Assembly: GCA_000002445.1 (NCBI GenBank) | Contig: CP000071.1 | Location: 1,440,001-1,504,000, forward strand | Length of the DNA: 64,000 nucleotides | Direction: 5' to 3' | Origin: Trypanosoma brucei | Lineage: Eukaryota | In this document: positions 36,621 through 60,545 of the stretch, piece after piece | Position numbering within the stretch: the first letter of the stretch is position 1 | Layout: each line of letters opens with the position of its first letter | Notes under the pieces: generated by a model | The model's input: the letters and a program-made list of their open reading frames with translations, nothing else | What the model was told of the DNA's origin: nothing | Database searches by the model: none | Position numbers and translations under genes: made by a program

Positions 36621-36860
36621 CGCTGCGCTTAAATGTCTTTCATTATAATCAATGTATAACCTTTATGTAGTATTTCAATCTATGCCGCTGTGTACGTGCA
36701 CTGCGGTGCCTATCCTTCGGCATTAGAGAGTCACTGTTTGTGTAGATCGTAGCTGCATGTCTGACATCTGGTTCATTAGTGCCGTTTTGAGTCTGCACTG
36801 TTGTGCAACTTGATATGCATCACTGCACACCAACCGTGTGTTTCCTCCTTTGGGTGCACC

Positions 36861-36907
36861 CTTTAATCCTTGTCTTCTCCTTTTTTGTCTCTTTCCCCCT
36901 CGAAAAG
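36861..36907 (+). promoter_or_regulatory. Polypyrimidine tract plus AG dinucleotide: candidate trans-splicing acceptor region for the downstream PFR2 copy, repeated in every spacer at +2154n
   Basis: The tract ctttaatccttgtcttctccttttttgtctctttccccctc is followed by aaaag, about 65 nt upstream of the ATG. From established kinetoplastid mRNA processing, a polyY tract directs spliced-leader addition at a downstream AG and polyadenylation of the upstream mRNA. The exact acceptor AG is not determinable from sequence. Confidence 0.5.
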
Positions 36908-36971
36908 GTGTCAAACTACTGCCGCATAAACTACGGTTATCCCAAATTTAAGAGAAAGCAATAAAGCATCA

Positions 36972-38774: not shown

Positions 38775-39125
38775 CGCTGCGCTTAAGTGTCTTTCATTAT
38801 AATCAATGTATAACCTTTATGTAGTATTTCAATCTATGCCGCTGTGTACGTGCACTGCGGTGCCTATCCTTCGGCATTAGAGAGTCACTGTTTGTGTAGA
38901 TCGTAGCTGCATGTCTGACATCTGGTTCATTAGTGCCGTTTTGAGTCTGCACTGTTGTGCAACTTGATATGCATCACTGCACACCAACCGTGTGTTTCCT
39001 CCTTTGGGTGCACCCTTTAATCCTTGTCTTCTCCTTTTTTGTCTCTTTCCCCCTCGAAAAGGTGTCAAACTACTGCCGCATAAACTACGGTTATCCCAAA
39101 TTTAAGAGAAAGCAATAAAGCATCA

Positions 39126-40928: not shown

Positions 40929-41279
40929 CGCTGCGCTTAAGTGTCTTTCATTATAATCAATGTATAACCTTTATGTAGTATTTCAATCTATGCCGCTGTG
41001 TACGTGCACTGCGGTGCCTATCCTTCGGCATTAGAGAGTCACTGTTTGTGTAGATCGTAGCTGCATGTCTGACATCTGGTTCATTAGTGCCGTTTTGAGT
41101 CTGCACTGTTGTGCAACTTGATATGCATCACTGCACACCAACCGTGTGTTTCCTCCTTTGGGTGCACCCTTTAATCCTTGTCTTCTCCTTTTTTGTCTCT
41201 TTCCCCCTCGAAAAGGTGTCAAACTACTGCCGCATAAACTACGGTTATCCCAAATTTAAGAGAAAGCAATAAAGCATCA

Positions 41280-43082
41280 ATGAGCGGAAAGGAAGTTGAA
41301 GGTGTTGTGAGTCCTGCGGACCAGCAGCAGCCAGCCGTCCCGGAGGTAACAGATATCACGCTGGAGGCCGCCCGCAAGCAGAAAATTCACAACCTGAAGT
41401 TGAAGACCGCCTGCCTTTCGAATGAGGAATATGTCCAGGACCTGCACGTATCCGAGTGGAGTGAGACGCAGAAGCAGAAGCTGCAGGCTGCACACGAGAA
41501 AGCGCATGAATTGCTTGCCTCAGTGGAGGGTGGGACGAAGTGGAGCCTGACAGAGGCGTATGACATCAAGAAGCTGATGCGCGTCTGTGGTCTTGAGATG
41601 TCTGTGCGTGAACTGTACAAGCCGGAGGACAAGCCACAGTTCATGGAGATTGTTGCACTCAAGAAGACAATGAACGAACTGAAGCAACATCACAACAAGA
41701 CTCGCACGGTGTCTTTCACCGGCATGATCGACAATGCCATCGCCAAACTGGAGAAAATCGAAGACGAACTGCGCCGGTCCCAGCTCGACGCTTCTGAGAT
41801 GGCGCAAGTTCCTGTGGCTGCACTGAAGAATATTGAGGACACGATGAACGTGGCTGTTGTGCAGACGGCTCTTCTTGGGAACGAGGAGCAGATCAAAGCC
41901 CAACTTGCAGCCGTTGAGAAGGCGAACGAAATCCGTAATGTTGCCATTGCCGATGGTGAGATGGCGATTGCTGAGGAACAGTATTACATTAAGGCGCAGC
42001 TGTTGGAGCACCTTGTGGAGCTTGTGGCCGACAAGTTTCGCATCATTGGGCAAACTGAGGATGAGAATAAGAGCTTCAGTAAGATCCACGAGGTACAGAA
42101 GAAGTCATTTCAGGAATCTGCCTCAATCAAGGACGCGAAGCGCCGCCTTAAGCAACACTGCGAGGACGACCTACGTAACCTTCACGATGCCATCCAGAAA
42201 GCTGACTTGGAGGACGCCGAAGCCATGAAACGGTTCGCCACGCAGAAGGAGAAGTCGGAGCGGTTCATCCACGAGAACCTCGACAAACAGGACGAGGCAT
42301 GGCGTCGCATTCAGGAACTGGAGCGCGTGTTGCAGCGCCTTGGGACGGAGCGTTTTGAAGAGGTGAAGCGCCGTATTGAGGAGAACGACCGCGAGGAGAA
42401 GCGTAAGGTGGAGTACCAACAGTTCCTCGATGTATGTGGCCAGCATAAAAAGCTGCTGGAACTGTCTGTGTACAACTGCGACCTTGCGCTTCGCTGCATG
42501 GGTATGCTGGAGGAGATCGTAGCCGAGGGCTGCAGTGCCGTCAAGTCACGCCATGACAAGACGAACGATGAGTTGTCTGACCTTCGGCTGCAGGTGCACC
42601 AGGAGTACCTGGAGGCATTCCGTCGCCTGTACAAAACTCTTGGCCAGCTTGTGTACAAGAAAGAAAAGCGCCTGGAGGAGATTGATCGCAACATCCGCAC
42701 CACACACATTCAACTGGAGTTTGCCATTGAGACCTTTGACCCCAACGCGAAACTACACTCCGACAAGAAGAAAGACCTATACAAACTTCGTGCGCAGGTG
42801 GAGGAAGAGTTGGAGATGCTGAAGGACAAGATGGCGCAGGCGTTGGAGATGTTTGGACCTACTGAGGATGCGCTGAACCAGGCTGGTATCGATTTTGTTC
42901 ACCCTGCTGAGGAGGTTGAGTCCGGCAACATGGATCGCCGCAGCAAGATGGTGGAGTACCGTGCACACCTGGCGAAGCAGGAGGAGGTGAAGATTGCCGC
43001 GGAGCGCGAGGAGCTGAAACGATCTAAGATGCTCCAGAGCCAGCAGTACCGCGGCCGCACGATGCCGCAGATCACTCAGTAG
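41280..43082 (+). CDS. PFR2: Paraflagellar rod protein 2, copy 4
   Basis: Translation identical to copy 1. Confidence 0.95.
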   Translation: MSGKEVEGVVSPADQQQPAVPEVTDITLEAARKQKIHNLKLKTACLSNEEYVQDLHVSEWSETQKQKLQAAHEKAHELLASVEGGTKWSLTEAYDIKKLMRVCGLEMSVRELYKPEDKPQFMEIVALKKTMNELKQHHNKTRTVSFTGMIDNAIAKLEKIEDELRRSQLDASEMAQVPVAALKNIEDTMNVAVVQTALLGNEEQIKAQLAAVEKANEIRNVAIADGEMAIAEEQYYIKAQLLEHLVELVADKFRIIGQTEDENKSFSKIHEVQKKSFQESASIKDAKRRLKQHCEDDLRNLHDAIQKADLEDAEAMKRFATQKEKSERFIHENLDKQDEAWRRIQELERVLQRLGTERFEEVKRRIEENDREEKRKVEYQQFLDVCGQHKKLLELSVYNCDLALRCMGMLEEIVAEGCSAVKSRHDKTNDELSDLRLQVHQEYLEAFRRLYKTLGQLVYKKEKRLEEIDRNIRTTHIQLEFAIETFDPNAKLHSDKKKDLYKLRAQVEEELEMLKDKMAQALEMFGPTEDALNQAGIDFVHPAEEVESGNMDRRSKMVEYRAHLAKQEEVKIAAEREELKRSKMLQSQQYRGRTMPQITQ

Positions 43083-43433
43083 CGCTGCGCTTAAATGTCT
43101 TTCATTATAATCAATGTATAACCTTTATGTAGTATTTCAATCTATGCCGCTGTGTACGTGCACTGCGGTGCCTATCCTTCGGCATTAGAGAGTCACTGTT
43201 TGTGTAGATCGTAGCTGCATGTCTGACATCTGGTTCATTAGTGCCGTTTTGAGTCTGCACTGTTGTGCAACTTGATATGCATCACTGCACACCAACCGTG
43301 TGTTTCCTCCTTTGGGTGCACCCTTTAATCCTTGTCTTCTCCTTTTTTGTCTCTTTCCCCCTCGAAAAGGTGTCAAACTACTGCCGCATAAACTACGGTT
43401 ATCCCAAATTTAAGAGAAAGCAATAAAGCATCA

Positions 43434-45236
43434 ATGAGCGGAAAGGAAGTTGAAGGTGTTGTGAGTCCTGCGGACCAGCAGCAGCCAGCCGTCCCGGAGG
43501 TAACAGATATCACGCTGGAGGCCGCCCGCAAGCAGAAAATTCACAACCTGAAGTTGAAGACCGCCTGCCTTTCGAATGAGGAATATGTCCAGGACCTGCA
43601 CGTATCCGAGTGGAGTGAGACGCAGAAGCAGAAGCTGCAGGCTGCACACGAGAAAGCGCATGAATTGCTTGCCTCAGTGGAGGGTGGGACGAAGTGGAGC
43701 CTGACAGAGGCGTATGACATCAAGAAGCTGATGCGCGTCTGTGGTCTTGAGATGTCTGTGCGTGAACTGTACAAGCCGGAGGACAAGCCACAGTTCATGG
43801 AGATTGTTGCACTCAAGAAGACAATGAACGAACTGAAGCAACATCACAACAAGACTCGCACGGTGTCTTTCACCGGCATGATCGACAATGCCATCGCCAA
43901 ACTGGAGAAAATCGAAGACGAACTGCGCCGGTCCCAGCTCGACGCTTCTGAGATGGCGCAAGTTCCTGTGGCTGCACTGAAGAATATTGAGGACACGATG
44001 AACGTGGCTGTTGTGCAGACGGCTCTTCTTGGGAACGAGGAGCAGATCAAAGCCCAACTTGCAGCCGTTGAGAAGGCGAACGAAATCCGTAATGTTGCCA
44101 TTGCCGATGGTGAGATGGCGATTGCTGAGGAACAGTATTACATTAAGGCGCAGCTGTTGGAGCACCTTGTGGAGCTTGTGGCCGACAAGTTTCGCATCAT
44201 TGGGCAAACTGAGGATGAGAATAAGAGCTTCAGTAAGATCCACGAGGTACAGAAGAAGTCATTTCAGGAATCTGCCTCAATCAAGGACGCGAAGCGCCGC
44301 CTTAAGCAACACTGCGAGGACGACCTACGTAACCTTCACGATGCCATCCAGAAAGCTGACTTGGAGGACGCCGAAGCCATGAAACGGTTCGCCACGCAGA
44401 AGGAGAAGTCGGAGCGGTTCATCCACGAGAACCTCGACAAACAGGACGAGGCATGGCGTCGCATTCAGGAACTGGAGCGCGTGTTGCAGCGCCTTGGGAC
44501 GGAGCGTTTTGAAGAGGTGAAGCGCCGTATTGAGGAGAACGACCGCGAGGAGAAGCGTAAGGTGGAGTACCAACAGTTCCTCGATGTATGTGGCCAGCAT
44601 AAAAAGCTGCTGGAACTGTCTGTGTACAACTGCGACCTTGCGCTTCGCTGCATGGGTATGCTGGAGGAGATCGTAGCCGAGGGCTGCAGTGCCGTCAAGT
44701 CACGCCATGACAAGACGAACGATGAGTTGTCTGACCTTCGGCTGCAGGTGCACCAGGAGTACCTGGAGGCATTCCGTCGCCTGTACAAAACTCTTGGCCA
44801 GCTTGTGTACAAGAAAGAAAAGCGCCTGGAGGAGATTGATCGCAACATCCGCACCACACACATTCAACTGGAGTTTGCCATTGAGACCTTTGACCCCAAC
44901 GCGAAACTACACTCCGACAAGAAGAAAGACCTATACAAACTTCGTGCGCAGGTGGAGGAAGAGTTGGAGATGCTGAAGGACAAGATGGCGCAGGCGTTGG
45001 AGATGTTTGGACCTACTGAGGATGCGCTGAACCAGGCTGGTATCGATTTTGTTCACCCTGCTGAGGAGGTTGAGTCCGGCAACATGGATCGCCGCAGCAA
45101 GATGGTGGAGTACCGTGCACACCTGGCGAAGCAGGAGGAGGTGAAGATTGCCGCGGAGCGCGAGGAGCTGAAACGATCTAAGATGCTCCAGAGCCAGCAG
45201 TACCGCGGCCGCACGATGCCGCAGATCACTCAGTAG
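43434..45236 (+). CDS. PFR2: Paraflagellar rod protein 2, copy 5
   Basis: Translation identical to copy 1; the downstream flank differs from the inter-copy spacer. Confidence 0.95.
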   Translation: MSGKEVEGVVSPADQQQPAVPEVTDITLEAARKQKIHNLKLKTACLSNEEYVQDLHVSEWSETQKQKLQAAHEKAHELLASVEGGTKWSLTEAYDIKKLMRVCGLEMSVRELYKPEDKPQFMEIVALKKTMNELKQHHNKTRTVSFTGMIDNAIAKLEKIEDELRRSQLDASEMAQVPVAALKNIEDTMNVAVVQTALLGNEEQIKAQLAAVEKANEIRNVAIADGEMAIAEEQYYIKAQLLEHLVELVADKFRIIGQTEDENKSFSKIHEVQKKSFQESASIKDAKRRLKQHCEDDLRNLHDAIQKADLEDAEAMKRFATQKEKSERFIHENLDKQDEAWRRIQELERVLQRLGTERFEEVKRRIEENDREEKRKVEYQQFLDVCGQHKKLLELSVYNCDLALRCMGMLEEIVAEGCSAVKSRHDKTNDELSDLRLQVHQEYLEAFRRLYKTLGQLVYKKEKRLEEIDRNIRTTHIQLEFAIETFDPNAKLHSDKKKDLYKLRAQVEEELEMLKDKMAQALEMFGPTEDALNQAGIDFVHPAEEVESGNMDRRSKMVEYRAHLAKQEEVKIAAEREELKRSKMLQSQQYRGRTMPQITQ

Positions 45237-46246
45237 GATTGTGTACTGTAATTGTATTTTTTGGGTTTTTTTTGAAAGTGGTAGTAGTATTTTAGAGTTG
45301 CTACTTACTTATGAGTTTGATATGTTTGTTTTTATGTATAATTTTTTTTTTGAGAAACTGATGTTTATATGTATGTGTATCTTCTTATTTGCGGTTAGAT
45401 TAGACGATTTTTAGTGTATTTTTATTTGGCTGGGGTTTATTTGGCTGCTATTTGTTGTAGGATGCGCCGTGCTGACGCTTCTTGCTCTTGTATGTCGCCG
45501 AGTTATGCTGATTGTTGCTCTCTCTATATTTCTTTTGTGCGGTGGTGTTGTTGAAAAATTTTGCTGCTAATATTGTTGTCATGTATTTTGTTGTTGTTAC
45601 TTGTCTGTGAGTGGTTTCTTTCTTTCTTTTTTCCACTGTGTTTTGTAATAGTGTCTTACTTTAGCTTAGGATTATAGGTATGGAGGGATGTGTTATTGCC
45701 TGATCAAATATTTCTGTTGGAGTTGTTAGGTTACTGTTGCACGTGACTTCCGTATATATCCGTGTTGGCTTTTTCTTTTTGAGTTAAAGTTCTTTTGTTT
45801 TGGTATAATCGTGTGTGTGGGATCTGCTGCATGTAATGTCCGGATGGTCGAGCCGACGTGGTACCTTTTTTGGGCTTTATCGTGTGGTGGTGAATGTTAC
45901 TTCTTTTGAGTTTGTTAGTGGCATTACCGCTGTTGTAAGCACAATTAAGTGTAGTGTATGAGTATATGCCCACGATCTGGGCTAAAGGCTTGTAGTTGAA
46001 CCGAGCCCGCCGATGTCCCATTTGTGGAGGAGTGGTGTATAACGTGAGCAACGTTAGAGGTTGGTTTTTACCTCATGGAGGTATTGTGTGTTGTACATTT
46101 CTTTTAAGTTGTATTACTGGTGTTCAACCGTATCTGCTCTTCTGTTTTGTTGGACGTATGCTTTGCGTTAACCACTTGTTATTAACGCCCGTGGGTATAT
46201 CCAACGCTGCTGAAATAATCATTAGTGCATTAGCTAACCGTTGACC

Positions 46247-47578
46247 ATGGAAATGGATAGGTTGACACGCCGGCAGGCGGACCGGATTGAGTACGTCATG
46301 CGGGATCTCTTACGCGATTTGCAACTCATAGCATTTCTTCCCGTAGACTTGTACCCCTGGACGCGTAGAAGCTGCCTTGAAGCGGCGCGGAACCTTTTGG
46401 CGGAGGCAAGCATGAATCAGGGTATGAATGGGGCGGCAGCGCAGATTTACGGAGAGGATGACAACTCAACATATGTTGCTCAGCTTATATATGGTCTTGC
46501 TGAGCGGTATGGTGACGCAACTGACGTTGATAATAATGAGTTACTTTTGCAAATGACTGAGTTCGCAGAATTAGAAAGGGAAATGCTAGACACCGCCACG
46601 TCGGTGGGCGCAGTGGATGAATACGATATTAACCGACACCACAAACTTTTTCGTGCGGTGTTGGACACCCTGCAGCAAGAGGGCTACACAGAGCTTGTTG
46701 CTCACTCGCTGAAGTGGGGAAGCGGTGACGACTCAGCTGTAGCACAACCACCGGGTGCTTATCCCATGGAGCCTAGCGTTTTCAATCGTTTAGTCGATCC
46801 TGGAATGTTGTCGCTGCAGCGCACCGTCGAGTGCCTATGTGAGCTGTTGGTTGTTCGCAACACCTCTACTGTAACTGAGGACATACACAACTATAAGATA
46901 TTGCATGAGGCGGTTAACAAAGAGAAGAGTTCATCCGCCGATGTGAAGGCTCTGAAACGTGAATACCATGAGATAAGGGAGGCACGTCGCACAGAAGTGG
47001 CTGCATTGCAGGCGGAGGTGCGCCAGTTAGAGGATGAGATCGAGTACACTCGTAGTGTGTTAGAACTCGAGCTGTCGGCTTTCGGCGAGGCAAATGCCAA
47101 ACTGGAAGAGGAACGCCAAGTGGAGGAGGAGGAGCGTATCAACGCACTGAAGGAGGAAGCGGAGCACTTAAAACAGAAACTCGATGGACTTATTGCGGCG
47201 AATCAAGGGGAGGCCGCAACGCTTCGCACTCAGCGAGCAAAGAAGGAGGCGGCTGTGAGCGCCGCAATAACGGAGTACGACACTCAAATGGCCACTTTGC
47301 ATGCTGCATCTGTGGCGCTCAACAAGGAGACGGAGGAAGACACTGAGGCCATAGTTGCATTGGATGGTGAGTTGGGGGCACTATGTACCGAAAGGAATGA
47401 ATATGAACTAGAGAAATATATTGAAGAGATGCGCGAGAAGCATTATGAGCGCATGCACGAGCAGACGACGAGGTATGCCTCCACCATCCAGGCTTGCTTC
47501 CGCGCGTACCTCACGCGGGTGAACTTCGAAAGGGGACTGGCTAATTCTAAGCGAAAAAGGAAGCGGAAGAACAAATAG
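46247..47578 (+). CDS. Hypothetical coiled-coil protein (~443 aa) with C-terminal IQ calmodulin-binding-like motif
   Basis: Track ORF starts with TTG at 46241; the first ATG is at 46247 (MEMDRLTRRQ). The C-terminal half is heptad-rich and charged (EVRQLEDEIEYTRSVLELELSAF.. KLEEERQVEEEERINALKEEAEHLKQKL). The IQ-like segment is IQACFRAYLTRVNFERG, followed by a basic tail. Confidence 0.6.
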   Translation: MEMDRLTRRQADRIEYVMRDLLRDLQLIAFLPVDLYPWTRRSCLEAARNLLAEASMNQGMNGAAAQIYGEDDNSTYVAQLIYGLAERYGDATDVDNNELLLQMTEFAELEREMLDTATSVGAVDEYDINRHHKLFRAVLDTLQQEGYTELVAHSLKWGSGDDSAVAQPPGAYPMEPSVFNRLVDPGMLSLQRTVECLCELLVVRNTSTVTEDIHNYKILHEAVNKEKSSSADVKALKREYHEIREARRTEVAALQAEVRQLEDEIEYTRSVLELELSAFGEANAKLEEERQVEEEERINALKEEAEHLKQKLDGLIAANQGEAATLRTQRAKKEAAVSAAITEYDTQMATLHAASVALNKETEEDTEAIVALDGELGALCTERNEYELEKYIEEMREKHYERMHEQTTRYASTIQACFRAYLTRVNFERGLANSKRKRKRKNK

Positions 47579-48406: not shown

Positions 48407-48988
48407 ATGTCCCAACAGCGGCAGGTTGCTGCCAAATTGGGTGAAGTGGCCTTCGATAGTGGCGAGAAGGCAAGCGCTGAATTTTTCGCCATTACGTACG
48501 GCGCGCTTGTCCAGCAGATGATTACGGACCTTCCCCAAGCCGATGATGTAGAGGTTGTCAATCAGCAACTGGACACGATGGGCCGGCGGATTGGCTCGCG
48601 ACTGGTGGAAGAATACAGCGCCCGGAGCGGCGCCCCCGCCTGTCGCACGTTTGCGCAAGCGGCAGATGCTGTTGCAATTGTAGGAATAAAAATGTTTCTT
48701 AATGTTAACGCAACGGTACAACCTGCGGAGGAAAGTGGGGGTGACACATTTACGTTAACTTTTGCAGATAACCCGCTTGCGCTCTTTGTGGAACTGCCTG
48801 AGGGTCCTGTGCGTCAGCGCTTGTGGTATTCGAATGTTATTTGTGGTGTTATTGTCGGTGCGCTTTCTATGGTAGGGTTTATTGCAGAAGCGACGTTTGT
48901 AAGGGACACCCTGCGCGGTGATGCAACGAATGAGATACTACTGTCCTTCAAGGGGAGGGAGAAGGAAACCTTTAAGGTTGAACAATAG
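48407..48988 (+). CDS. BET3: TRAPP complex subunit 3 (Bet3 family)
   Basis: ATG verified at 48407. The 193-aa product aligns along its whole length to human TRAPPC3: EFFAITYGALVQQM vs ELFTLTYGALVTQL, VNQQLDTMGRRIGSRLVEEY vs VNKQLDKMGFNIGVRLIEDF, NPLALFVELP vs NPLVDFVELP, YSNVICGVIVGALSMV vs YSNLLCGVLRGALEMV, FVRDTLRGDATNEI vs FVQDTLKGDGVTEI. Confidence 0.85.
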   Translation: MSQQRQVAAKLGEVAFDSGEKASAEFFAITYGALVQQMITDLPQADDVEVVNQQLDTMGRRIGSRLVEEYSARSGAPACRTFAQAADAVAIVGIKMFLNVNATVQPAEESGGDTFTLTFADNPLALFVELPEGPVRQRLWYSNVICGVIVGALSMVGFIAEATFVRDTLRGDATNEILLSFKGREKETFKVEQ

Positions 48989-49697
48989 TTGTTGGGTTGT
49001 GTTGCACTTCCTCTTGTCACTACTTCCCTTTGATATCTGTTGATTTTTTTGACATCACTATCTGACCGATCTGGATCAACGTCGACGTTGGTTCCGTTTT
49101 CTCGTTTGCCGTATTACCACGGGTGAGCACTCACTCACCGACTCATCTATGCGTCGTGCTCGAGTGAGCATTTTTAAATTCATAGCGGGCTGGGGCGGTT
49201 GCATTATCATCTGAAGTACCTTTGGCCATATTGTGTCTGCTTTCCTCCCCCTTTTTTATATTTTTTCTTGCTGGCTTTCTGTTGTGTGTGCTGATGTGTG
49301 ACATATTGTGGTTCCTCGTCCATTATTGTGTTCTCTTTTCTTGAATTTTCGTTGCCTTTCGTGTTACTGCCGGCGCTAACTTTACCTGAGCTGGGAAAGG
49401 ACGCACACGCGCCGGTGTGATCATAGGGGAGGAAAGAAGCTCAAGCTTGACTGACCTTCTATCGAATAGGAGCAGGGGGAAGAGGGTCGAATAGCGTTGG
49501 CGGCAGTGTTGTGGATCCTTTGACATCCGTGAAGTGAGCACGACCAAACACATCCGTTCCTGCGTGAAAATTGGCGAAACGCCTGTGGTTTTGTTACGGC
49601 AGCAGATTTGTGGGCTCTATTCTCACTTGAGCTGTGACGTCGGGCCAGCCGCGCTCTGTCCATTATTATCACTTTTGCTGCTCGCGTGTGTGTGTTA

Positions 49698-50534
49698 ATG
49701 GATTACCGACAGAAAGCTGCCCGGCTTCCCCGTTCGGCGGAGGAAAAAAGCCGGTGGCGCCGTGTCATTATAATCCTTGAGCACTGTCCTCTTGCCGTTG
49801 TGCGTGGTAAGTACGGCTTCGAACTGTTGGCTGAGCGACACCGCGCCCACCACGCACGTTACAAGCAGGATCCCGCGGAATGGCGGCCCGACGTTGTACA
49901 CCAAGCGTTGCTTCACTTGATGGATTCCCCACTCAATCGAGCTGGCATGCTACAGGTGTTCCTCCGTACGAAGAAGGGTGTTGTCATAGCAGTCGACCCG
50001 CGTCTTCGCGTTCCACGGCACATGCGTTTGTTTGAGAAGATGATGGTATCGTGCCTGTACCGCATGAAAGTTCGTGCAGCGAACGGCTCAGTATCGCTTC
50101 TGCGCGTGGTGAAGAACCCCGTGACGGACCACATTCCGGCGAACTGCACACTCATACGTGTTGAAAAGGACGGTGATGCCGTGCCTGATATCTTTGCGTA
50201 CTGTGCAACATGTGGGACTAATAGGCATGCTGATGGATCGACAAGCGAAAACGTTGGGACGGCGACGGCGTGCTCCTCCTCTGCAGGAAGCGATGCAAAG
50301 GAGCCGCACTTTGCCCAGAAGCACCGTGACCTGGCTGATGCAAAGCAGTTCAGGCCATTTGCATTTATTATTGGTGGTATGTCGAAAGGTGACGTGGACG
50401 CGCCGTACGCCCCGCGCGCCCAGGTGAAGAGTATACGTCTTGGCGACCGAGGCATGTCGGCTGCGGCCGCTTGCAGTGTCATCATACATGGTTTTGAGGA
50501 AGAGTGGCTGCGCGAGGATAACGAGGCGTGTTAG
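49698..50534 (+). CDS. EMG1: EMG1/NEP1 ribosome biogenesis pseudouridine-N1 methyltransferase (SPOUT fold)
   Basis: Track ORF starts with GTG at 49686; the first ATG is at 49698 (MDYRQKAARL). Family motifs present: RVIIILEHCPL, DPAEWRPDVVHQALLHLMDSPLNRAGMLQVFLRTKKGVVIAVDPRLRVPR, LLRVVKNPVTDHIP, and the C-terminal ACSVIIHGFEEEW (compare ACSKFCHGAEDAW). Confidence 0.85.
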   Translation: MDYRQKAARLPRSAEEKSRWRRVIIILEHCPLAVVRGKYGFELLAERHRAHHARYKQDPAEWRPDVVHQALLHLMDSPLNRAGMLQVFLRTKKGVVIAVDPRLRVPRHMRLFEKMMVSCLYRMKVRAANGSVSLLRVVKNPVTDHIPANCTLIRVEKDGDAVPDIFAYCATCGTNRHADGSTSENVGTATACSSSAGSDAKEPHFAQKHRDLADAKQFRPFAFIIGGMSKGDVDAPYAPRAQVKSIRLGDRGMSAAAACSVIIHGFEEEWLREDNEAC

Positions 50535-51896: not shown

Positions 51897-54137
51897 ATGG
51901 GTGCCTGTGTTTCAGATGGAAGCAAGCAGAAGCCCGACTTCGTAAATGTAGGTGGCCAGAGTGGTCCCTTTGCGCCAGTGACGGATCATATAGTGGGGAA
52001 CACCAACGGTCCTGCAACAGTGCCGCAGGTGAACAAAAAGTCTGCACCGACGGTGAAGGAACCCACTCTTCCGAGGATTAGGGTTTTTACGGAGGTGGAT
52101 GATTCTGAGGCCAACAATATCGACCTCGTCCCTGGTAGCGGTTGCAGTGTTGTGAAGGGCAAGTACCGAATGACGCCCATAGTAGCATTCAAACCTTTCG
52201 CCGCTAGGCGCTTGCGGGAGCGAGCTGTCAAGGTAATTCGAGGCAGTTACTACTCTGAAGAGGCCCATGAGGAGCCACCGCAAGCGTGTGCGGTGACAAG
52301 TTGCCCATTTGGCGATGAGGAAAAGGAGGGTGCGAGTGGTACCAAAAAATGCAATCAACCGGAGTTTTCATTCGCTCTGGATACGTCGACTGATACGGAA
52401 GAGGGGCTTTCGTCTGGCTGCGACACAAGTGCTTCACCGCGCGACCGGTCTTTGGCAATGTGTGGTGGAGAGAAGGGATGCAGGAACGAGCCGGCTGATG
52501 AGTGCACACCAAACAGGAGAGGCTCCCTGCCCAGTGGAGTGGGTGGTGACGGCCCACAGTCACATAAGAAGGGAATAGATGTTGTTGATAAGTTAAATAC
52601 TCCTGGAACTGCCCGGTCAGTCAATGCGATAACTACAGAGCCGAAGTCCACACCACGATTGAGCCGCGAGGACTTGATTCTTCTTGGTTCAAAACGCTTG
52701 AAAAAGCGTGTGGAAGACCTGCGGCTGATTGAGCACCAAATGAAGGATGACGGTAATTGCCAATTTCGTGCAATCTCACATCAAATATTTGGCTCTCAGG
52801 AGTACCATGAGCTTGTTCGGGTGCACGTGGTGACGTACATGAAGAGCGTTCGGGATTCGTTCGATTGCTTCCTCGGGACTACTGAGGACGCCGATCACTA
52901 TTATGCCGATATGCTCAAGAATGGGACATGGGGTGACGAGCTCACACTACGCGCTGCAAGTGATAGCCTTTTCATCAATATTCACATCCTTTCGTCGGAA
53001 GAGCAAAACTATTATATTACTTATAACCCTAGCCCAGATGCACCCACTCCCCCGGCATTTTTAGTTGACGTTGCAACGATGCGGCAGGATCGACAAGAGG
53101 CTTTCTCGACTTCAGTGGCTTCGGTTTGTGTCTCACCTTCTCTCAGTGCACGTGGTAGCTGGAATGGAGGCGGTGGAAAAAAATCTCTGGCTACACCGCG
53201 GGGCCCTGTGGATCAACTTGGCTTGGCAGGGATAAATAGGAACTTTCGACCTATCCACGAGGAGGTTAACGTTGTTGAGCTACAGCGGGAGGTACAGCGC
53301 AAACTGGCTGCAAGTACAATTCGGAATACCACTTTGCCGGTACCCGAACCCCTGTTACCTTTCAAGGCTGTTATTGAGCAGAATGTAGTGGTTCCACCAA
53401 CAGCGGCACCGCAGCCGAAGCCAACTTTTGTTGACGCGCCGAAGAGCCCTGTGAAAACTGTCAGGATTGAATTGTCGCCGCGCGAGGTGTCTTTTAATGC
53501 AAAAAATACAAGCGTGATCTTCGTGTGTGCAAGGAAGAAGCCCCGACGGAAACGGACGAGCCGAGGCAGGTCGAAGACTCGCGGCGGCAGAATAGTTGGT
53601 CTTCCAAAGAGGCACCCAATAATGAGACCAATTTCCTTTTCCTCGTCACCAATAACGGCACGGAGAAGGCCAAGGTGTAGGTCGGCGTTAGTGCGAAATC
53701 TTTCGCCAAGGCGAAGCAAAAAGTTGCGCTCCAAGTCGAGTGCGATGCCAGCGTCTCTTCAGCTCCCTCCTTTCGCTTCTCCGTCTGAGAGTCCCGTTAA
53801 TCCCCGTCTCTCTTCTCCTGAACCCGCTCCCGTCATCGAGTTACCAGGTACCGCAAGCTTTATTTTAGTTTCTCCACGGTCATCTGATAGCGATATGGTG
53901 AAGCGTCTGTCACTGGGAAGCGCGTCTGTGCCGCACTCCAGCCCGCCACCGCGTTCAGCCGTTTGTGAAGGAAGTGCCTCACCGAAGGTAAGTGTTAGTC
54001 CATCTGAGAAGGAGGAGTTGGAGTCGTGTTTTTTGTCGGAGGCTCCCAATGCGCCCATTGATATTTTTCTTTCATACCTCTCCCCTGTTCATTACAACGC
54101 GCTGAGCGTGGATACAATCTCGAGACCTGTTGAATAA
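51897..54137 (+). CDS. OTU-domain cysteine protease (putative deubiquitinase) with N-terminal MGACVS dual-acylation signal and S/P/R-rich C-terminal tail
   Basis: ATG verified at 51897 (atgggtgcctgtgtttca). The OTU core lies around nt 52730-53000: DDGNCQFRAISHQIFGSQEYHELVRVHVVTYM ... WGDELTLRAASDSLFINIHILS. This shows the Cys box (DGNC) and His box. The N-terminus has Gly2, Cys4 and Ser6. Confidence 0.75.
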   Translation: MGACVSDGSKQKPDFVNVGGQSGPFAPVTDHIVGNTNGPATVPQVNKKSAPTVKEPTLPRIRVFTEVDDSEANNIDLVPGSGCSVVKGKYRMTPIVAFKPFAARRLRERAVKVIRGSYYSEEAHEEPPQACAVTSCPFGDEEKEGASGTKKCNQPEFSFALDTSTDTEEGLSSGCDTSASPRDRSLAMCGGEKGCRNEPADECTPNRRGSLPSGVGGDGPQSHKKGIDVVDKLNTPGTARSVNAITTEPKSTPRLSREDLILLGSKRLKKRVEDLRLIEHQMKDDGNCQFRAISHQIFGSQEYHELVRVHVVTYMKSVRDSFDCFLGTTEDADHYYADMLKNGTWGDELTLRAASDSLFINIHILSSEEQNYYITYNPSPDAPTPPAFLVDVATMRQDRQEAFSTSVASVCVSPSLSARGSWNGGGGKKSLATPRGPVDQLGLAGINRNFRPIHEEVNVVELQREVQRKLAASTIRNTTLPVPEPLLPFKAVIEQNVVVPPTAAPQPKPTFVDAPKSPVKTVRIELSPREVSFNAKNTSVIFVCARKKPRRKRTSRGRSKTRGGRIVGLPKRHPIMRPISFSSSPITARRRPRCRSALVRNLSPRRSKKLRSKSSAMPASLQLPPFASPSESPVNPRLSSPEPAPVIELPGTASFILVSPRSSDSDMVKRLSLGSASVPHSSPPPRSAVCEGSASPKVSVSPSEKEELESCFLSEAPNAPIDIFLSYLSPVHYNALSVDTISRPVE

Positions 54138-55995
54138 AGGCACTGAAGAGCGGTGAGCTAAGAGAAAAGGAGTGCACACACATTTATATGCCTATGTTCC
54201 CCTTACGATTGTTGCTCTTGTGTGTACTCGTGTACCCCCATTCCAGTGCACGTAATTTTTTTGTTTTTAAAATTCTATTCCTGTTTTTTTCTTGCTGTTT
54301 TTACCCCTTCGTTTCCTTTTCTGAATTGAGTGCCCCGGTCGTTGGTTCCGTACCATATGGAAGTCCAGGCCGTGACACATTTGTTGGGTTTGACCTCACC
54401 ACTATCCTTTTCATTCGTCATTCGTTTGTTCGGTCCGTGAGTTTTCGCTGCCTTCTCTCCTTATTCTTCCCCCTTTTATCTTCTTTTTCCGTTTCTTACT
54501 ATTATTGTTACTTATCATTATTATTTCTGCCATATTGATTCGTCTTGTTTCCTCCCCTCCTCGGTAATTGGTAGCGGGGATCGGGGGTGGGGAAGGAAGT
54601 GTATATAATTCATGGGACTGGATGGTGAGGAAAAGAAAAGAAGGGGAGAGAAATCCGTGTACTTATCCGTACAGTTGGAAAAGGGGTATGTGCTGAGTTG
54701 AACCTTGTTTCTTCTTTTCTTTTTTTTTGTTTTCGAAACGAAGTGTGGATGTGTATTGGTTTGGTCGCGAGAACGGGATGCATGGACCGCCTTATTGTTA
54801 TTGTTATTATTCTCCCACTCGCTCTTTGCATATATATATATATATGAGCGCACATGTATTTTGCTTGAATGTAAATAAAAATATGTCAACATGCCGACGG
54901 CACAGTGCCATCACTGGAATAACTTCTGCCAGATGCGTGTGACGGTGGCTTTGCGCCGCGAGGAAAATATGAGGAAAGTAACGTTGCCGGTATGAGGGGC
55001 GATATACAACATGTTTAACAGCAACACGAAGGACGAATCTGTTGAATGTGAATTTACTGCTTTAAGGTATTTTAATGGACGCATCCGTGGCGTGTGCTAC
55101 TTCCTCTCGTTTTGCCTTTGGAAACTGCTTCCAGGAAAAATGGTGTGCATACGTACCCTGCTAACCGTATATAAGCAACAAATGTATTTTCTCTGATGTG
55201 TGCGGCTGCGTACACGTGAACACGAAGCTCTGTTTTCATTACCATTTTTTCCCCCTTTTCCCCTTTCCACTTTTTTTGATTTTTGTTTTTTACTAATTAT
55301 GTTACCCGGCGTTATGCCTATGTTTTCTTTCGTTTTTAGCTTTTTTCTCCTGATTCCGCGTTGTGCTGCTTTTCTCACACTCCTGCTCAATAGTAGCATT
55401 GCTCAGTTGAAGTGTGTGGCCTCGCAGCTGGCGACAGTCATATTACCCCTTCTGGTTACTTCGGTTTTTCTTGTACGTCCCCTGCATCATTCTTTTATCT
55501 CCATTTCTTTTCTGTCTTTTTTGTTTTGCCCCCATTTATGAGGGACTAAAAAAAAAAACGATGTGATACTTTTGTGTGAGTTACACGTATTGCTTAACTT
55601 GGTTCCTTTCACCATTGACATGGTTACTGTTGCTGCGTGCGCTGGTGTTGCCAGAACTGTTTAAAAATTATTAAAACTGTGGCTGAGCGTACCGGTTGGG
55701 TGCAGGGGGAAGAGAGTTTCCGGCCGTTCGTAATGCAGGAGTGGTTCGAGTATGTATTGACACATACAAAAATGTTGGGTAGACATAAAGAGCTGCAAAT
55801 GAGCGTATCTGCTGAAAAATTACTTTCCTCACTCCCATGTTTAATCCTTTTCGTAATTAAATAAGCGCGCCCGCACAGGTACGACCACACACCGGTGAAG
55901 GAGGAAAAAAAGACAACGACAACAACAACAACATCATTATCATTATCATTATCATTAGTATCAAAGAGGAGGAAGCAGAAGAAGCTACCGCGGCG

Positions 55996-56565
55996 ATGGG
56001 ACAATCCAAAACGAAGCTGCAAGTCGTCATGTGCGGGCTAGATAACAGTGGGAAAACTACAATTATTAACCAAGTGAAACCAGCACAGTCATCTAGCAAG
56101 CATATCACTGCCACTGTAGGATACAATGTTGAAACTTTCGAAAAGGGTCGTGTGGCCTTCACCGTCTTTGACATGGGTGGTGCGAAGAAGTTCCGCGGGT
56201 TGTGGGAGACATACTACGACAATATTGATGCGGTCATATTTGTTGTAGATAGCAGCGACCACTTGCGGCTTTGCGTAGTGAAGTCGGAGATTCAGGCCAT
56301 GCTCAAGCACGAGGACATCAGACGTGAGCTACCGGGTGGCGGTCGGGTGCCGTTTCTATTTTTTGCCAATAAAATGGATGCTGCCGGTGCCAAAACGGCC
56401 GCGGAACTTGTGGAAATTTTGGATCTTACGACTCTGATGGGGGACCATCCGTTTGTTATATTTGCCTCGAATGCACTGAAAGGAACAGGTGTGCACGAAG
56501 GTTTCAGTTGGCTTCAGGAGACTGCGTCGCGACAGAGTGGCAAAGCTGGGACGAAGAGGGGCTGA
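55996..56565 (+). CDS. ARL6: ADP-ribosylation factor-like GTPase 6 (ARL6/BBS3 orthologue)
   Basis: ATG verified at 55996; the N-terminus is MGQSKT. The 189-aa product aligns to human ARL6: [19 protein letters not shown] vs [40 protein letters not shown] vs [32 protein letters not shown] vs [20 protein letters not shown] identical, [19 protein letters not shown] vs ASDAIKGEGLQEGVDWLQD. Confidence 0.85.
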   Translation: [189 protein letters not shown]

Positions 56566-57926: not shown

Positions 57927-58757
57927 GGTATTGGATGGGAACAGTTGTCCATAAAAGTTGCAGGAAGAGGAAAAACAGTGCTCTAAGGGAACCGGATGGC
58001 ACAAAAGGCAAAAAAAAAAAGTAACGGAAAAAAAAGCAAGCTAAATGGGCGGGTATTTGAAGTGTGGATGGACCGTACGTGTATGTGCGTTTTTTTTTTT
58101 CGTTCGTTATGGCGAGCGGGTGAGAAGACATTAACGCCAGGTGGCATTTTGTGAACGGGATTGGGGTGGATGGGAGTGTTCGTGCGTTTGTGGAGCGGCA
58201 GGTGGCAAACCGTACAGCTGATTAAGCGCGGATCGTCAAGAAAGGGCGAAAAATTGTGTACCCCTGCGGTCCAACTCGGCTTCCACCACCGCAAGGCCTC
58301 TGTTATGGAGTAGCTGCAGTTTTTGAAAAGAAGTAATTTAACGAAAACGATGTGGAAGCGGGTGACCCGTGAAAGAAGGGAAGGGAAAGGGTGGTGGTGG
58401 TGACTTTATGCTGTTTGTTCCGATGTAGCTGCGTCCCACAGCCTTCACTCCCTGCTTTTCCCTCTTCATTCTCATTTTCTTCCGGAGCATTATTGCGTAC
58501 CCGCTCATGCGCTGAAGGAAGTGCCCCGGTGTCCGTGTGCTTCTGTTTGCAGCGACTGACGTCAACAGGAGCGAAGGAAGTGTGAACATTTTCGCCCCCT
58601 TGATTTGTAATGTGTATGAGTGTCAGCACAATGTTGGGTGAAGGGGGAAAACAAATTCTGCACCACAACTACCACTATATTTCTCTCCGCGTGGCGAAAA
58701 GGAAGTTCAAGAAACGAAGCGTCAGTAGCGATAATTGCGGTGACACGGGTGGCGGAA

Positions 58758-60545
58758 ATGCTTACTCTGGCTATCATATGTGTCAGCTCCGCGGCAGTTG
58801 CCGCTGCTTGTGCAGTTTGGTGGTTCCTTGGCACAATTCCCCTTGCCGCACTGCTCGTTTTGTATGCTTGCATGGCAAACCAGCTCTTCAGGGCGTGTCT
58901 TATGTCGGGCCCGAAGACATCACGCCAGGTACCACCAACGCCCATTGCGCCCTGCCAACGTCTCTCGGCTGTGCAACTCAGCAAGGCTTACAGGGAGGGT
59001 GTGTTGAGTTGCGAAGAGGTGACGCGCACATATATTGAGCATATTAAACGTGTTAACCCTTATATTAACGCTATGGTTTTTGAGTGTTTTGACGAAGCCA
59101 TTGCCGCCGCAGTGCAAGCTGACAAGGTTTGGGCCAAATGGCGTGCTAACCGCGGTAATGCGGAACCAAGTTGGCTTTTGGGAGTCCCGTGTACCATCAA
59201 AGAATCGATGTCAGTCACCGGTTGTCCGAACGCCAGCGGCCTGCCACAGAGGCGTCACATCATCTCACGCATGGATAGCCCAGTAGTGAAGAACTTCCGT
59301 GACGCCGGCGCTGTTATTCTTGGCGTAACAAACACGAGTGAACTCTGCATGTGGTACGAGAGCTCTAACTACGTCTATGGTATATCATGCAATCCATACG
59401 ACACCAGGTGCATTGTGGGTGGAAGCAGCGGCGGAGAGGGAGCCTCCGCCGGTGCCGTGTTCTCAACCTTCAGTTTGGGAAGTGATATCGGGGGCTCTAT
59501 ACGTATGCCAGCATTCTTCAATGGTGTCTTTGGCCACAAGGCGAGTCCACACTACATATCTAACCGGGGGCAACATCCCGCTCCAGTTGCGTCTACGAAT
59601 CACTACATGTCCACAGGGCCCATTAGCCGCTTTGCCGAAGATCTTGAGCCGCTTTGTCGGGTGGCCGCCCGCGGTGGGTTTCTTGAGGATGAAAAGAAGT
59701 TTCCACCGCGCCCACCACTTCGGCGGCTCCCCTGCATTGACGCGAGGAAGTCACTGCGGGTCTTTATCCTGGAAGACTTTGGCACCGTTTTGGCCCGTAC
59801 TTCGACGACTCAACTTGAGATTGTGAGGGAAGTGGGGCAGTATTTGGAGGAGCAATTCGGTGCCTTGGTGACATATGTGAACTTGCATACATGGAAGTGT
59901 TCTGGCGGAGGGGAGATATTGAAAGTGTTTAGGCCATTTTCGAAGAGTCTACGTTTGTGGTTGGGGGCTATGAGTAACGACAAGGAAGAGGTGGTGTTTA
60001 CAGATCTCATGGCAGAAGGTATGACCAGCTTCAGCCCATTGAAGGAAATATTTCTGTGGGTGATAGGACGTTCTCAGCACACACTTCCAGCCTTGAGCCT
60101 CACTGTGGTCGATGCAGTTCTGCAACATTTCCCAAAGTGGGGGCCTATGGGTACGGCAAATGATACCGTGCGGGAATTCAAGAAGTCTCTGGAGGAGTTG
60201 CTGAACGGTGATGGTGTCATCATTTCCCCAACGTTTCCCCGTGCCGCGCCGCGTCACCACCGGCCCATCTTTTCACCTTTCGACTTTCAGTACACCGCAG
60301 CCTTTAATGTGCTTCGGATGCCGGTGACATGTGTTCCCATTTGGCAAAAGGAGCTTCGTGGTGACATGAGGGTTCCAACAGTAGAGGAGGCAAAAGAACT
60401 TGCCGCTTCCGCGGACTACCACCTGCCGAAGGGAGTTCAAATCGCGTCCCGGGAAGGCAATGACGAACTGAGCCTCGCTGTGGCTCAGGTACTTGAGACT
60501 GCTTTCGGCGGCTATAAGTACCCTGGCTGGGCTATTCTCGAGTAA
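58758..60545 (+). CDS. Amidase-signature family enzyme (fatty-acid-amide-hydrolase-like) with N-terminal transmembrane helix
   Basis: Track ORF 58620-60545 starts with GTG (gtg tca gca = VSA). The first in-frame ATG is at 58758, giving MLTLAIICVSSAAVAAACAVWWFLGTIPLAALLVLYA (hydrophobic anchor). The amidase signature GGSSGGEGASAGAVFSTFSLGSDIGGSIRMPA is present, with the catalytic Ser-cisSer-Lys context (K in CTIKESMSVTG). Confidence 0.8.
   Translation: MLTLAIICVSSAAVAAACAVWWFLGTIPLAALLVLYACMANQLFRACLMSGPKTSRQVPPTPIAPCQRLSAVQLSKAYREGVLSCEEVTRTYIEHIKRVNPYINAMVFECFDEAIAAAVQADKVWAKWRANRGNAEPSWLLGVPCTIKESMSVTGCPNASGLPQRRHIISRMDSPVVKNFRDAGAVILGVTNTSELCMWYESSNYVYGISCNPYDTRCIVGGSSGGEGASAGAVFSTFSLGSDIGGSIRMPAFFNGVFGHKASPHYISNRGQHPAPVASTNHYMSTGPISRFAEDLEPLCRVAARGGFLEDEKKFPPRPPLRRLPCIDARKSLRVFILEDFGTVLARTSTTQLEIVREVGQYLEEQFGALVTYVNLHTWKCSGGGEILKVFRPFSKSLRLWLGAMSNDKEEVVFTDLMAEGMTSFSPLKEIFLWVIGRSQHTLPALSLTVVDAVLQHFPKWGPMGTANDTVREFKKSLEELLNGDGVIISPTFPRAAPRHHRPIFSPFDFQYTAAFNVLRMPVTCVPIWQKELRGDMRVPTVEEAKELAASADYHLPKGVQIASREGNDELSLAVAQVLETAFGGYKYPGWAILE

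What the first reader, a model, noticed from the sequence alone, without database searches (positions are those of the whole stretch)
55996..56565. ARL6/BBS3 orthologue has the switch-II catalytic glutamine replaced by alanine (DMGGAKK instead of DxxGQ)
In Arf/Arl GTPases the G3 motif WDxGGQ supplies the glutamine needed for GTP hydrolysis. Human ARL6 reads DMSGQGRYR. In this otherwise well-conserved orthologue the aligned sequence is DMGGAKKFR, i.e. the Gln position is Ala. The P-loop (GLDNSGKTT) and NKxD (ANKMD) motifs are intact. This predicts a GTPase with intrinsically low or GAP-refractory hydrolysis. That would resemble a constitutively GTP-biased state, which matters for its proposed BBSome and flagellar trafficking role. 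The N-terminus MGQSKT is also a candidate N-myristoylation site.
Basis: seen in the sequence. Interest (0 to 1): 0.55.

Follow-up and report, generated by a model that had tools for sequence, protein, structure and literature searches.

The report
Known trypanosome ARL6 lacking catalytic glutamine

Summary
Window 55996-56565 (+) is a 189-aa Arf-family ORF. Codon 63 is GCG (56182-56184) and gives DMGGAKKFR. It aligns without gaps to DMSGQGRYR of human ARL6, so Ala63 sits at the catalytic Gln position.

The protein is exactly T. b. brucei TREU927 Tb927.8.5060 (Q57UH8) and differs at one residue from PDB 4BAS, the T. brucei ARL6 structure.

It is not new. Price et al. 2012 (PMC3793860) already report that Arf1 Gln71 is replaced by alanine (residue 63) in kinetoplastid ARL6. 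They also demonstrate N-myristoylation and measure nucleotide binding. Liu et al. 2021 (PMC7963478) note that BBS3 of several species has Ala at this position.

My alignments show the Ala in nearly all Euglenozoa-type relatives recovered. The same site is Q, A, S, G, E or H across the ARL6 family.

Chlamydomonas ARL6, which also has Ala, still hydrolyses GTP slowly and needs A73L to be locked. TbARL6 binds mant-GDP about 3-fold tighter than mant-GTP. Hydrolysis by TbARL6 itself appears unmeasured.

Verdict: real, ordinary, already known.

The parts
55996..56565 (+). Complete coding sequence of TbARL6/BBS3 (Tb927.8.5060), 189 aa plus TGA stop
   Evidence: ORF list. Pfam Arf PF00025, E = 3.6e-47. 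Exact match to Q57UH8_TRYB2 / XP_847336.1. 188/189 identical to PDB 4BAS.
55996..56013 (+). N-terminus MGQSKT: N-myristoylation signal (Gly2, Thr6). The N-terminus is about 9-10 residues shorter than in vertebrate ARL6.
   Evidence: Sequence. Alignment of N-termini. N-myristoylation shown experimentally in PMC3793860.
56035..56061 (+). G1/P-loop GLDNSGKTT (residues 14-22). Thr21 is the residue mutated in the published T21N mutant.
   Evidence: T21N is described in PMC3793860.
56113..56115 (+). Switch I threonine, Thr40 in ATVGY
   Evidence: Aligned to PTIGF/PTVGF of other ARL6 proteins.
56170..56184 (+). G3 motif DMGGA (residues 59-63), the start of switch II
56182..56184 (+). Codon 63, GCG = Ala, at the position of the catalytic Gln (Arf1 Gln71, human ARL6 Gln73)
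   Evidence: codon. (alignment). PMC3793860 section 4.6.
56329..56343 (+). LPGGG (residues 112-116), part of an insertion between helix alpha3 and strand beta5 that is seen only in Trypanosoma species
   Evidence: It is the only gap in the alignment with human ARL6. It is present in the Trypanosoma sequences displayed and absent from the displayed Leishmaniinae, Phytomonas, diplonemid and euglenid sequences; Angomonas has a shorter, different insertion.
56368..56379 (+). G4 motif NKMD (residues 125-128)
56464..56475 (+). G5 region ASNA (residues 157-160). Residue 160 is Ala here and Gly in T. b. gambiense and 4BAS.

Best explanation
This is the known single-copy ARL6/BBS3 gene of Trypanosoma brucei on chromosome 8 (Tb927.8.5060). 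It encodes an N-myristoylated Arf-like GTPase that is functionally linked to the BBSome subunit BBS1 and to flagellum length. Ala63 at the canonical catalytic-Gln position is real and ancient: it is shared by nearly all Euglenozoa-type relatives recovered. It is one of several residues the ARL6 family tolerates at this site.

The most likely working model has three parts, all inferred:
- The protein is still a nucleotide-dependent switch. Its intrinsic GTP hydrolysis is slow but not zero, as in Chlamydomonas ARL6, which also has Ala.
- Its nucleotide affinity is low (micromolar) and exchange is spontaneous on a timescale of minutes.
- Any fast inactivation must come from a partner that supplies the catalytic group in trans. 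An ARL6 GAP has not been identified in any organism (my own knowledge).

Shown: identity, motifs, conservation of Ala, myristoylation and nucleotide-binding constants (the last two from the literature). Inferred: slow residual hydrolysis and trans-catalysis in T. brucei.
For: Identity:
- Exact protein match to TREU927 and T. equiperdum records.
- 188/189 identity to PDB 4BAS.
- 99.68% DNA identity to a T. equiperdum contig, with the same order OTU protease, ARL6, amidase.
- ARL6 proteins are the best PDB matches: 164 and 152 bits, against 116 bits or less for Arf and other Arl proteins.

Conservation:
- Of the query plus 120 homologues, 62 have A, 54 Q, 3 S and 2 E at this column.
- Nearly all Euglenozoa-type hits carry DM[GA]GA: Trypanosoma, Leishmania, Leptomonas, Phytomonas, Angomonas, Diplonema and a Eutreptiella-labelled transcript. 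Three unnamed relatives have Ser.

Lability of the site:
- In 174 ARL6-like domains the counts are Q 91, A 73, S 4, E 3, G 2 and H 1.
- A rough NJ tree with Fitch parsimony needs about 15 state changes.

Literature:
- PMC3793860 reports Ala at residue 63, N-myristoylation, Kd of 4.35 uM (mant-GDP) and 13.7 uM (mant-GTP), kdiss of 0.004-0.009 per s, T21N mislocalisation and a functional link to BBS1.
- PMC7963478 reports that Chlamydomonas BBS3 has Ala73, has low but real GTPase activity, and that A73L abolishes hydrolysis and shifts the protein to the membrane.
Against: No GTP hydrolysis measurement for TbARL6 itself was found. PMC3793860 contains no 'GTPase activity' data, and only four papers in the library mention TbARL6. 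The Euglenozoan switch II (AKKFR) differs from the Chlamydomonas one (AGRYR), so transferring the Chlamydomonas kinetics is an inference. The published binding constants were obtained with His-tagged, non-myristoylated protein and mant-nucleotides without lipids, so affinities in the cell may differ.
Confidence: 0.7

Rival explanations
1. Without the Gln, TbARL6 is essentially hydrolysis-dead and GAP-refractory. It sits constitutively in the GTP form and is controlled by other means, such as myristoylation, expression or partner binding, like Arl13B or Rnd/RhoH-type atypical GTPases.
For: There is no Gln in the P-loop, the switch I core or switch II. Arl13B also lacks the catalytic Gln, has very low intrinsic hydrolysis and has been proposed to be mostly GTP-bound (PMC4868535). 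With the published Kd values and an assumed cellular GTP:GDP ratio of 10:1, about three quarters of a non-hydrolysing protein would be GTP-bound. That figure is my arithmetic and the ratio is an assumption. In Chlamydomonas the locked A73L form rescues PLD export, so cycling inside cilia is dispensable for that function.
Against: The Ala-type Chlamydomonas protein hydrolyses GTP measurably, and A73L is needed to lock it. Most of the wild-type protein is in the ciliary matrix while A73L is on the membrane, so the wild type is not locked in vivo. TbARL6 prefers mant-GDP about 3-fold. The TbARL6 P-loop mutant T21N localises differently from wild type.
Confidence: 0.22
2. Artefact: a sequencing error, a pseudogene or a misalignment hides a true Gln.
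For: None found.
Against: GCG to CAG or CAA needs two or more base changes. The same residue occurs in independent assemblies of T. brucei, T. b. gambiense and T. equiperdum, in the crystallised protein, and in more than 60 orthologues. The alignments have no gaps across this region. The ORF is intact and the protein has been detected, tagged and knocked down.
Confidence: 0.01
3. The gene is not an ARL6 orthologue but a lineage-specific Arl paralogue that merely resembles ARL6, so comparison with the ARL6 Gln is not meaningful.
For: The N-terminal amphipathic segment of other ARL6 proteins is missing, and the localisation reported in T. brucei is vesicular rather than ciliary.
Against: ARL6 proteins are clearly the best matches. 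The ARL6-typical GLDNSGK P-loop, DMxG and NKMD motifs are shared. BBS1 overexpression combined with ARL6 RNAi has a synergistic effect on growth (PMC3793860). Bona fide Chlamydomonas ARL6, crystallised with BBS1, has the same Ala.
Confidence: 0.03

Closest known systems
Trypanosoma brucei ARL6 (Tb927.8.5060; UniProt Q57UH8; PDB 4BAS), Price et al. 2012, PMC3793860
   Same: It is the same gene. The protein is identical to the TREU927 record and 188/189 identical to the 4BAS chain. Ala63, N-myristoylation, low nucleotide affinity and the link to BBS1 are all described there.
   Different: Only residue 160 differs: Ala in the window, Gly in 4BAS and T. b. gambiense.
Chlamydomonas reinhardtii ARL6/BBS3 (PDB 4V0K-4V0O)
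   Same: It is an ARL6 orthologue (152 bits) with Ala at the same position (DMSGAGRYR). It is documented as an active GTPase with low intrinsic activity, and A73L is used as the GTP-locked form.
   Different: It keeps the long N-terminal amphipathic segment and the GRYR switch II of Gln-type ARL6. The Euglenozoan proteins have a short myristoylated N-terminus and AKKFR. On the rough tree its type of Ala sequence groups apart from the Euglenozoan clade.
Human/bovine ARL6 (PDB 2H57, 6VBV)
   Same: Same family (E = 3.8e-47), same P-loop GLDNSGKTT and NKMD, and the same spacing from DMxG to RxLW.
   Different: It has Gln73 (DMSGQGRYR), lacks the LPGGG insertion, has a longer N-terminus and is not predicted to be myristoylated.
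Arl13B, a ciliary Arf-like GTPase without a catalytic Gln
   Same: It is a ciliary Arl protein whose active site lacks the catalytic Gln and whose intrinsic hydrolysis is very low. The same two options have been discussed for it: a GAP supplying residues in trans, or a mostly GTP-bound protein (PMC4868535).
   Different: [quoted passage not shown] This is an analogy of mechanism only, not membership.

Membership tests
Arf/Arl small GTPase family (Pfam PF00025) | Full-length match to the Arf profile above the curated cut-off | tested here: met
   160.5 bits against a cut-off of 22.3, covering residues 3-176.
Arf/Arl small GTPase family (Pfam PF00025) | G1 (GxxxxGKT), G3 (DxxG), G4 (NKxD) and G5 motifs | tested here: met
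   [12 protein letters not shown], NKMD and ASN are all present.
Arf/Arl small GTPase family (Pfam PF00025) | Catalytic Gln directly after DxxG | tested here: not met
   Ala63, codon GCG. This is not disqualifying for ARL6, because Chlamydomonas ARL6 and many other ARL6-like sequences also lack it.
ARL6/BBS3 orthologous group | ARL6 proteins are the best matches, clearly above other Arf/Arl paralogues | tested here: met
   Human/bovine ARL6 score 163.9 bits and Chlamydomonas ARL6 151.7 bits; the next best, Arf1, scores 115.9 bits. UniRef names the cluster ADP-ribosylation factor-like protein 6.
ARL6/BBS3 orthologous group | ARL6-typical motif set: GLDNSGK P-loop, DM[SGA]G, [FY]R-x-LW and NKMD | tested here: met
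   Shared with vertebrate, oomycete and algal ARL6. Arf and Arl1-type hits have LDAA or LDNA P-loops instead.
ARL6/BBS3 orthologous group | N-terminal amphipathic helix of about 15 residues for GTP-dependent membrane binding | tested here: not met
   The Euglenozoan N-termini are about 9-10 residues shorter (MGQSKTKL against MGLLDKLSGWLGLRKKEV) and carry a myristoylation signal instead. Myristoylation is shown in PMC3793860.
ARL6/BBS3 orthologous group | GTP-dependent binding to BBS1 and the BBSome | not testable with these tools
   The literature gives only a functional link: BBS1 overexpression combined with ARL6 RNAi is synergistic, and the BBSome was not recovered in affinity purification (PMC3793860).
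Atypical, hydrolysis-deficient small GTPases (Arl13B-like behaviour) | No detectable or very low intrinsic and GAP-stimulated GTP hydrolysis | not testable with these tools
   No hydrolysis data for TbARL6 were found. Ala-type Chlamydomonas ARL6 has low but real activity.

The most novel reading that the evidence does not exclude
The catalytic-Gln position is unusually labile across the whole ARL6 family. It is Q, A, S, G, E or H, with roughly 15 inferred changes in 173 sequences, whereas Arf and Arl1-type hits in the same searches are almost always Q. This would mean ARL6 does not use a cis-Gln for hydrolysis at all. The still-unidentified ARL6 GAP would supply the water-positioning residue in trans, in the manner of the RapGAP 'Asn thumb'. 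The Euglenozoan AKKFR variant, with its myristoyl anchor replacing the amphipathic helix, would be an extreme form of this. That idea would direct the search for the missing ARL6 GAP.
Probability: 0.25. Interest if true: 0.5.

Novelty: already known. Interest (0 to 1): 0.12.

Why it matters
ARL6/BBS3 recruits the BBSome to membranes, and its on/off cycle is central to ciliary trafficking and Bardet-Biedl syndrome. A natural orthologue without the catalytic Gln bears on how ARL6 is switched off, which is still unclear because no ARL6 GAP is known (my own knowledge). For T. brucei, however, the substitution, the lipid anchor, the nucleotide-binding constants and a crystal structure are already public, and the equivalent Chlamydomonas case has been tested biochemically. 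The window therefore adds no new fact. The remaining gap is a direct hydrolysis measurement for the trypanosome protein.

Tried and rejected
- **Sequencing error or misalignment:** rejected. The codon is GCG and is two changes from Gln. The alignments have no gaps in this region. The same residue is in independent assemblies and in 4BAS.
- **Ala restricted to kinetoplastids, or to T. brucei:** rejected. It is also in diplonemid and euglenid-type sequences and in several non-Euglenozoan ARL6-like sequences.
- **Primary sources not held in the library:** I tried to read Mourao et al. 2014 (PMC4255524) and Langousis et al. 2016 (PMC4725476). Neither is held. The Chlamydomonas GTPase statement is therefore cited second-hand from PMC7963478.
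- **A paper describing 4BAS:** the search found none.
- **The 50%-identity representative library:** it has no names and many fused or truncated gene models. I used it only to count motif states, not for taxonomy.
- **The NJ/Fitch count:** it is rough. It has no support values, the column itself was included in the distances, and sampling is biased towards relatives of an Ala-type query. It is offered only as an order of magnitude.
- **Structure prediction and fold search:** not run, because an experimental structure of essentially this protein already exists.

Full report
**1. Is the observation in the sequence?**

Yes. Window 55996-56565 on the + strand is an uninterrupted ORF of 189 codons plus TGA. 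It starts [26 protein letters not shown].

- The P-loop GLDNSGKTT is at residues 14-22.
- The G3 motif DMGGA is at residues 59-63.
- NKMD is at residues 125-128.
- Codon 63 is GCG at 56182-56184.

The real codon needs two substitutions to reach CAG, so a one-base read error cannot create or remove the Gln.

Pfam gives a full-length Arf-family match (PF00025, E = 3.6e-47).

**2. Is Ala63 truly at the catalytic position?**

Yes. HMMER alignments to human and bovine ARL6 (2H57, 6VBV; E = 3.8e-47) have no gap before residue 110, well past switch II. They put [20 protein letters not shown] opposite [20 protein letters not shown] with top posterior confidence.

The only gap is a five-residue insertion (LPGGG, residues 112-116), well after switch II. 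A MAFFT alignment of the query with 120 database homologues also has no gaps between the DMxG and RxLW anchors.

The P-loop, the switch I core ([10 protein letters not shown]) and switch II contain no Gln that could substitute.

**3. What is it?**

- **Protein identity.** The protein is, residue for residue, the record Q57UH8_TRYB2 / XP_847336.1 of T. b. brucei TREU927, and is also found in T. equiperdum.
- **Solved structure.** It differs at one residue (Ala160 against Gly160) from PDB 4BAS, the solved T. brucei protein, and from T. b. gambiense DAL972.
- **DNA and gene order.** The DNA around it is 99.68% identical to a T. equiperdum OVI contig with the same gene order: OTU protease, ARL6, amidase.
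- **Chromosomal setting.** Upstream lies a five-copy tandem array of a 600-aa paraflagellar-rod gene. Essentially all long ORFs from 12 kb onward are on the + strand, as in a kinetoplastid polycistronic unit.
- **Orthology.** Price et al. 2012 give the gene identifier as Tb927.8.5060. Orthology with ARL6 is supported by the ranking of solved structures: ARL6 proteins score 164 and 152 bits, and the next best, Arf1, scores 116 bits. It is also supported by the shared ARL6-type motif set GLDNSGK / DMxG / NKMD.

**4. Is it already known?**

Yes, explicitly. Price et al. [quoted passage not shown] They add that for this reason a GTP-locked mutant could not simply be designed.

The same paper reports the following:

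- N-myristoylation, shown by alkynyl-myristate labelling and a mislocalising G2A mutant.
- Kd of 4.35 uM for mant-GDP and 13.7 uM for mant-GTP.
- Dissociation rate constants of 0.004-0.009 per s.
- A mislocalising T21N mutant.
- Shortened flagella on RNAi.
- A synergistic growth defect when BBS1 overexpression is combined with ARL6 RNAi.

Liu et al. [quoted passage not shown] They also report the following:

- Chlamydomonas BBS3 (Ala73) is an active GTPase with low intrinsic activity, citing Mourao et al. 2014.
- A73L abolishes hydrolysis.
- A73L sits on the ciliary membrane, whereas most wild-type protein is in the matrix.

The PDB alignment confirms DMSGAGRYR in the Chlamydomonas chain.

**5.

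Among the query plus 120 homologues, the column holds A 62 times, Q 54, S 3 and E 2.

- **Ala in Euglenozoa.** Nearly all Euglenozoa-type hits have DM[GA]GA. Named examples are nine Trypanosoma species, Leishmania, Leptomonas, Novymonas, Porcisia, Phytomonas, Angomonas, Diplonema papillatum and a Eutreptiella-labelled transcript. Three unnamed relatives have Ser.
- **Other residues.** Vertebrates, a sea urchin and oomycetes have Q. Two Triparma species have E.
- **Wider count.** After adding 50%-identity cluster representatives, 174 ARL6-like domains give Q 91, A 73, S 4, E 3, G 2 and H 1. Arf-type (LDAA) hits are 26 Q to 1 other, and LDNA-type hits are 25 Q to 5 others.
- **Rough tree.** An NJ tree with Fitch parsimony needs about 15 changes at the site. 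It shows one large Ala clade of the Euglenozoan type and several small Ala groups nested among Q sequences.

This count is only indicative. The tree has no support values and the sampling is biased towards relatives of the query.

The observed residues connect by single-nucleotide steps, for example CAG-GAG-GCG and GCN-TCN or GCN-GGN. That fits a weakly constrained site; this is inference.

**6. How it most likely works**

- **Shown.** The protein is an intact, expressed, myristoylated ARL6 with complete nucleotide-binding motifs and micromolar nucleotide affinities.
- **Inferred.** As in Ala-type Chlamydomonas ARL6, intrinsic hydrolysis is probably slow but not absent, so the protein still cycles. 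Spontaneous exchange has a half-time of about 1.3-2.9 min (ln2/kdiss). Any rapid switch-off would need a partner supplying the catalytic group in trans.
- **Background.** No ARL6 GAP is known (my own knowledge). The 2023 BBSome review contains no occurrence of 'GAP'.

It remains a minority possibility. I found no hydrolysis assay for TbARL6. With the published Kd values and an assumed 10:1 GTP:GDP ratio, about 76% of a non-hydrolysing protein would be GTP-bound; this is my arithmetic. Arl13B is a ciliary precedent for that behaviour.

Against it stand the Chlamydomonas data, the roughly 3-fold preference for mant-GDP and the T21N phenotype.

**7. Verdict**

The myristoylation guess is right and already proven. 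The mechanistic inference is only partly supported. Nothing here is new: it is a textbook-level re-discovery of a feature published in 2012 and revisited in 2014 and 2021.

Interest is low. The only open point is the missing hydrolysis measurement for the trypanosome protein, together with the broader question of why the ARL6 family tolerates loss of the Gln.

Noticed in passing
window 34818-45236 (+): There are five head-to-tail copies of a 600-aa ORF with starts at 34818, 36972, 39126, 41280 and 43434 (period 2154 bp). The first copy, the only one scanned, matches the Pfam paraflagellar rod family (PF05149, E = 1.3e-106). This looks like a tandem paraflagellar-rod gene array of T. brucei.
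   Followed up: partly
window 56473-56475 (codon 160): There is a natural Ala/Gly polymorphism next to the G5 motif (ASN-A/G-LKG). Ala occurs in the window, TREU927 and T. equiperdum. Gly occurs in T. b. gambiense DAL972 and in the crystallised 4BAS protein.
   Followed up: yes
homologues P0011-P0023 (Leishmania, Leptomonas, Novymonas, Porcisia), aligned to window 56185-56187: Most Leishmaniinae-type ARL6 sequences read DMGGAQKFR. They have a Gln one residue downstream of the canonical catalytic position, where Trypanosoma has Lys (AKKFR). Whether this shifted Gln takes part in hydrolysis is unknown.
   Followed up: no
window 56329-56343 (residues 112-116) and neighbours: An insertion in the alpha3-beta5 loop (RELPGGG) is present in the Trypanosoma sequences displayed. 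It is absent from the displayed Leishmaniinae, Phytomonas, diplonemid, euglenid and non-Euglenozoan ARL6 sequences. Angomonas has a shorter, different insertion there.
   Followed up: partly
window 55996-56020 compared with homologues: Euglenozoan ARL6 N-termini are about 9-10 residues shorter than those of vertebrate and oomycete ARL6. They lack the amphipathic LLDKLSGWLGL-type segment. They keep Gly2 and a Ser/Thr at position 6 (MGQSKT, MGIFQS), so a myristoyl anchor appears to replace the helix across the lineage.
   Followed up: partly
window 55918-55960: A short microsatellite-like run, (CAA)n followed by (ATCATT)n, lies about 35-80 bp upstream of the ARL6 start codon, in the presumed 5' UTR or intergenic region.
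   Followed up: no
homologue P0006 (T. cruzi), aligned to window 56056-56058: The T. cruzi ARL6 P-loop reads GLDNSGKSS, with Ser where other sequences have the Thr corresponding to Arf1 Thr31. Price et al. 2012 also remark on this.
   Followed up: no
window 23533-27903, 30223-34602, 46241-47578, 48407-48988, 49686-50534, 51897-54137 and 58620-60545 (all +): Neighbouring ORFs on the same strand are: a 1456-aa kinesin with a long coiled coil, a 1459-aa ORF and a 445-aa ORF with no Pfam match, a TRAPP subunit, an EMG1/NEP1 methyltransferase, an OTU-like cysteine protease and an amidase. The arrangement fits one polycistronic transcription unit.
   Followed up: partly
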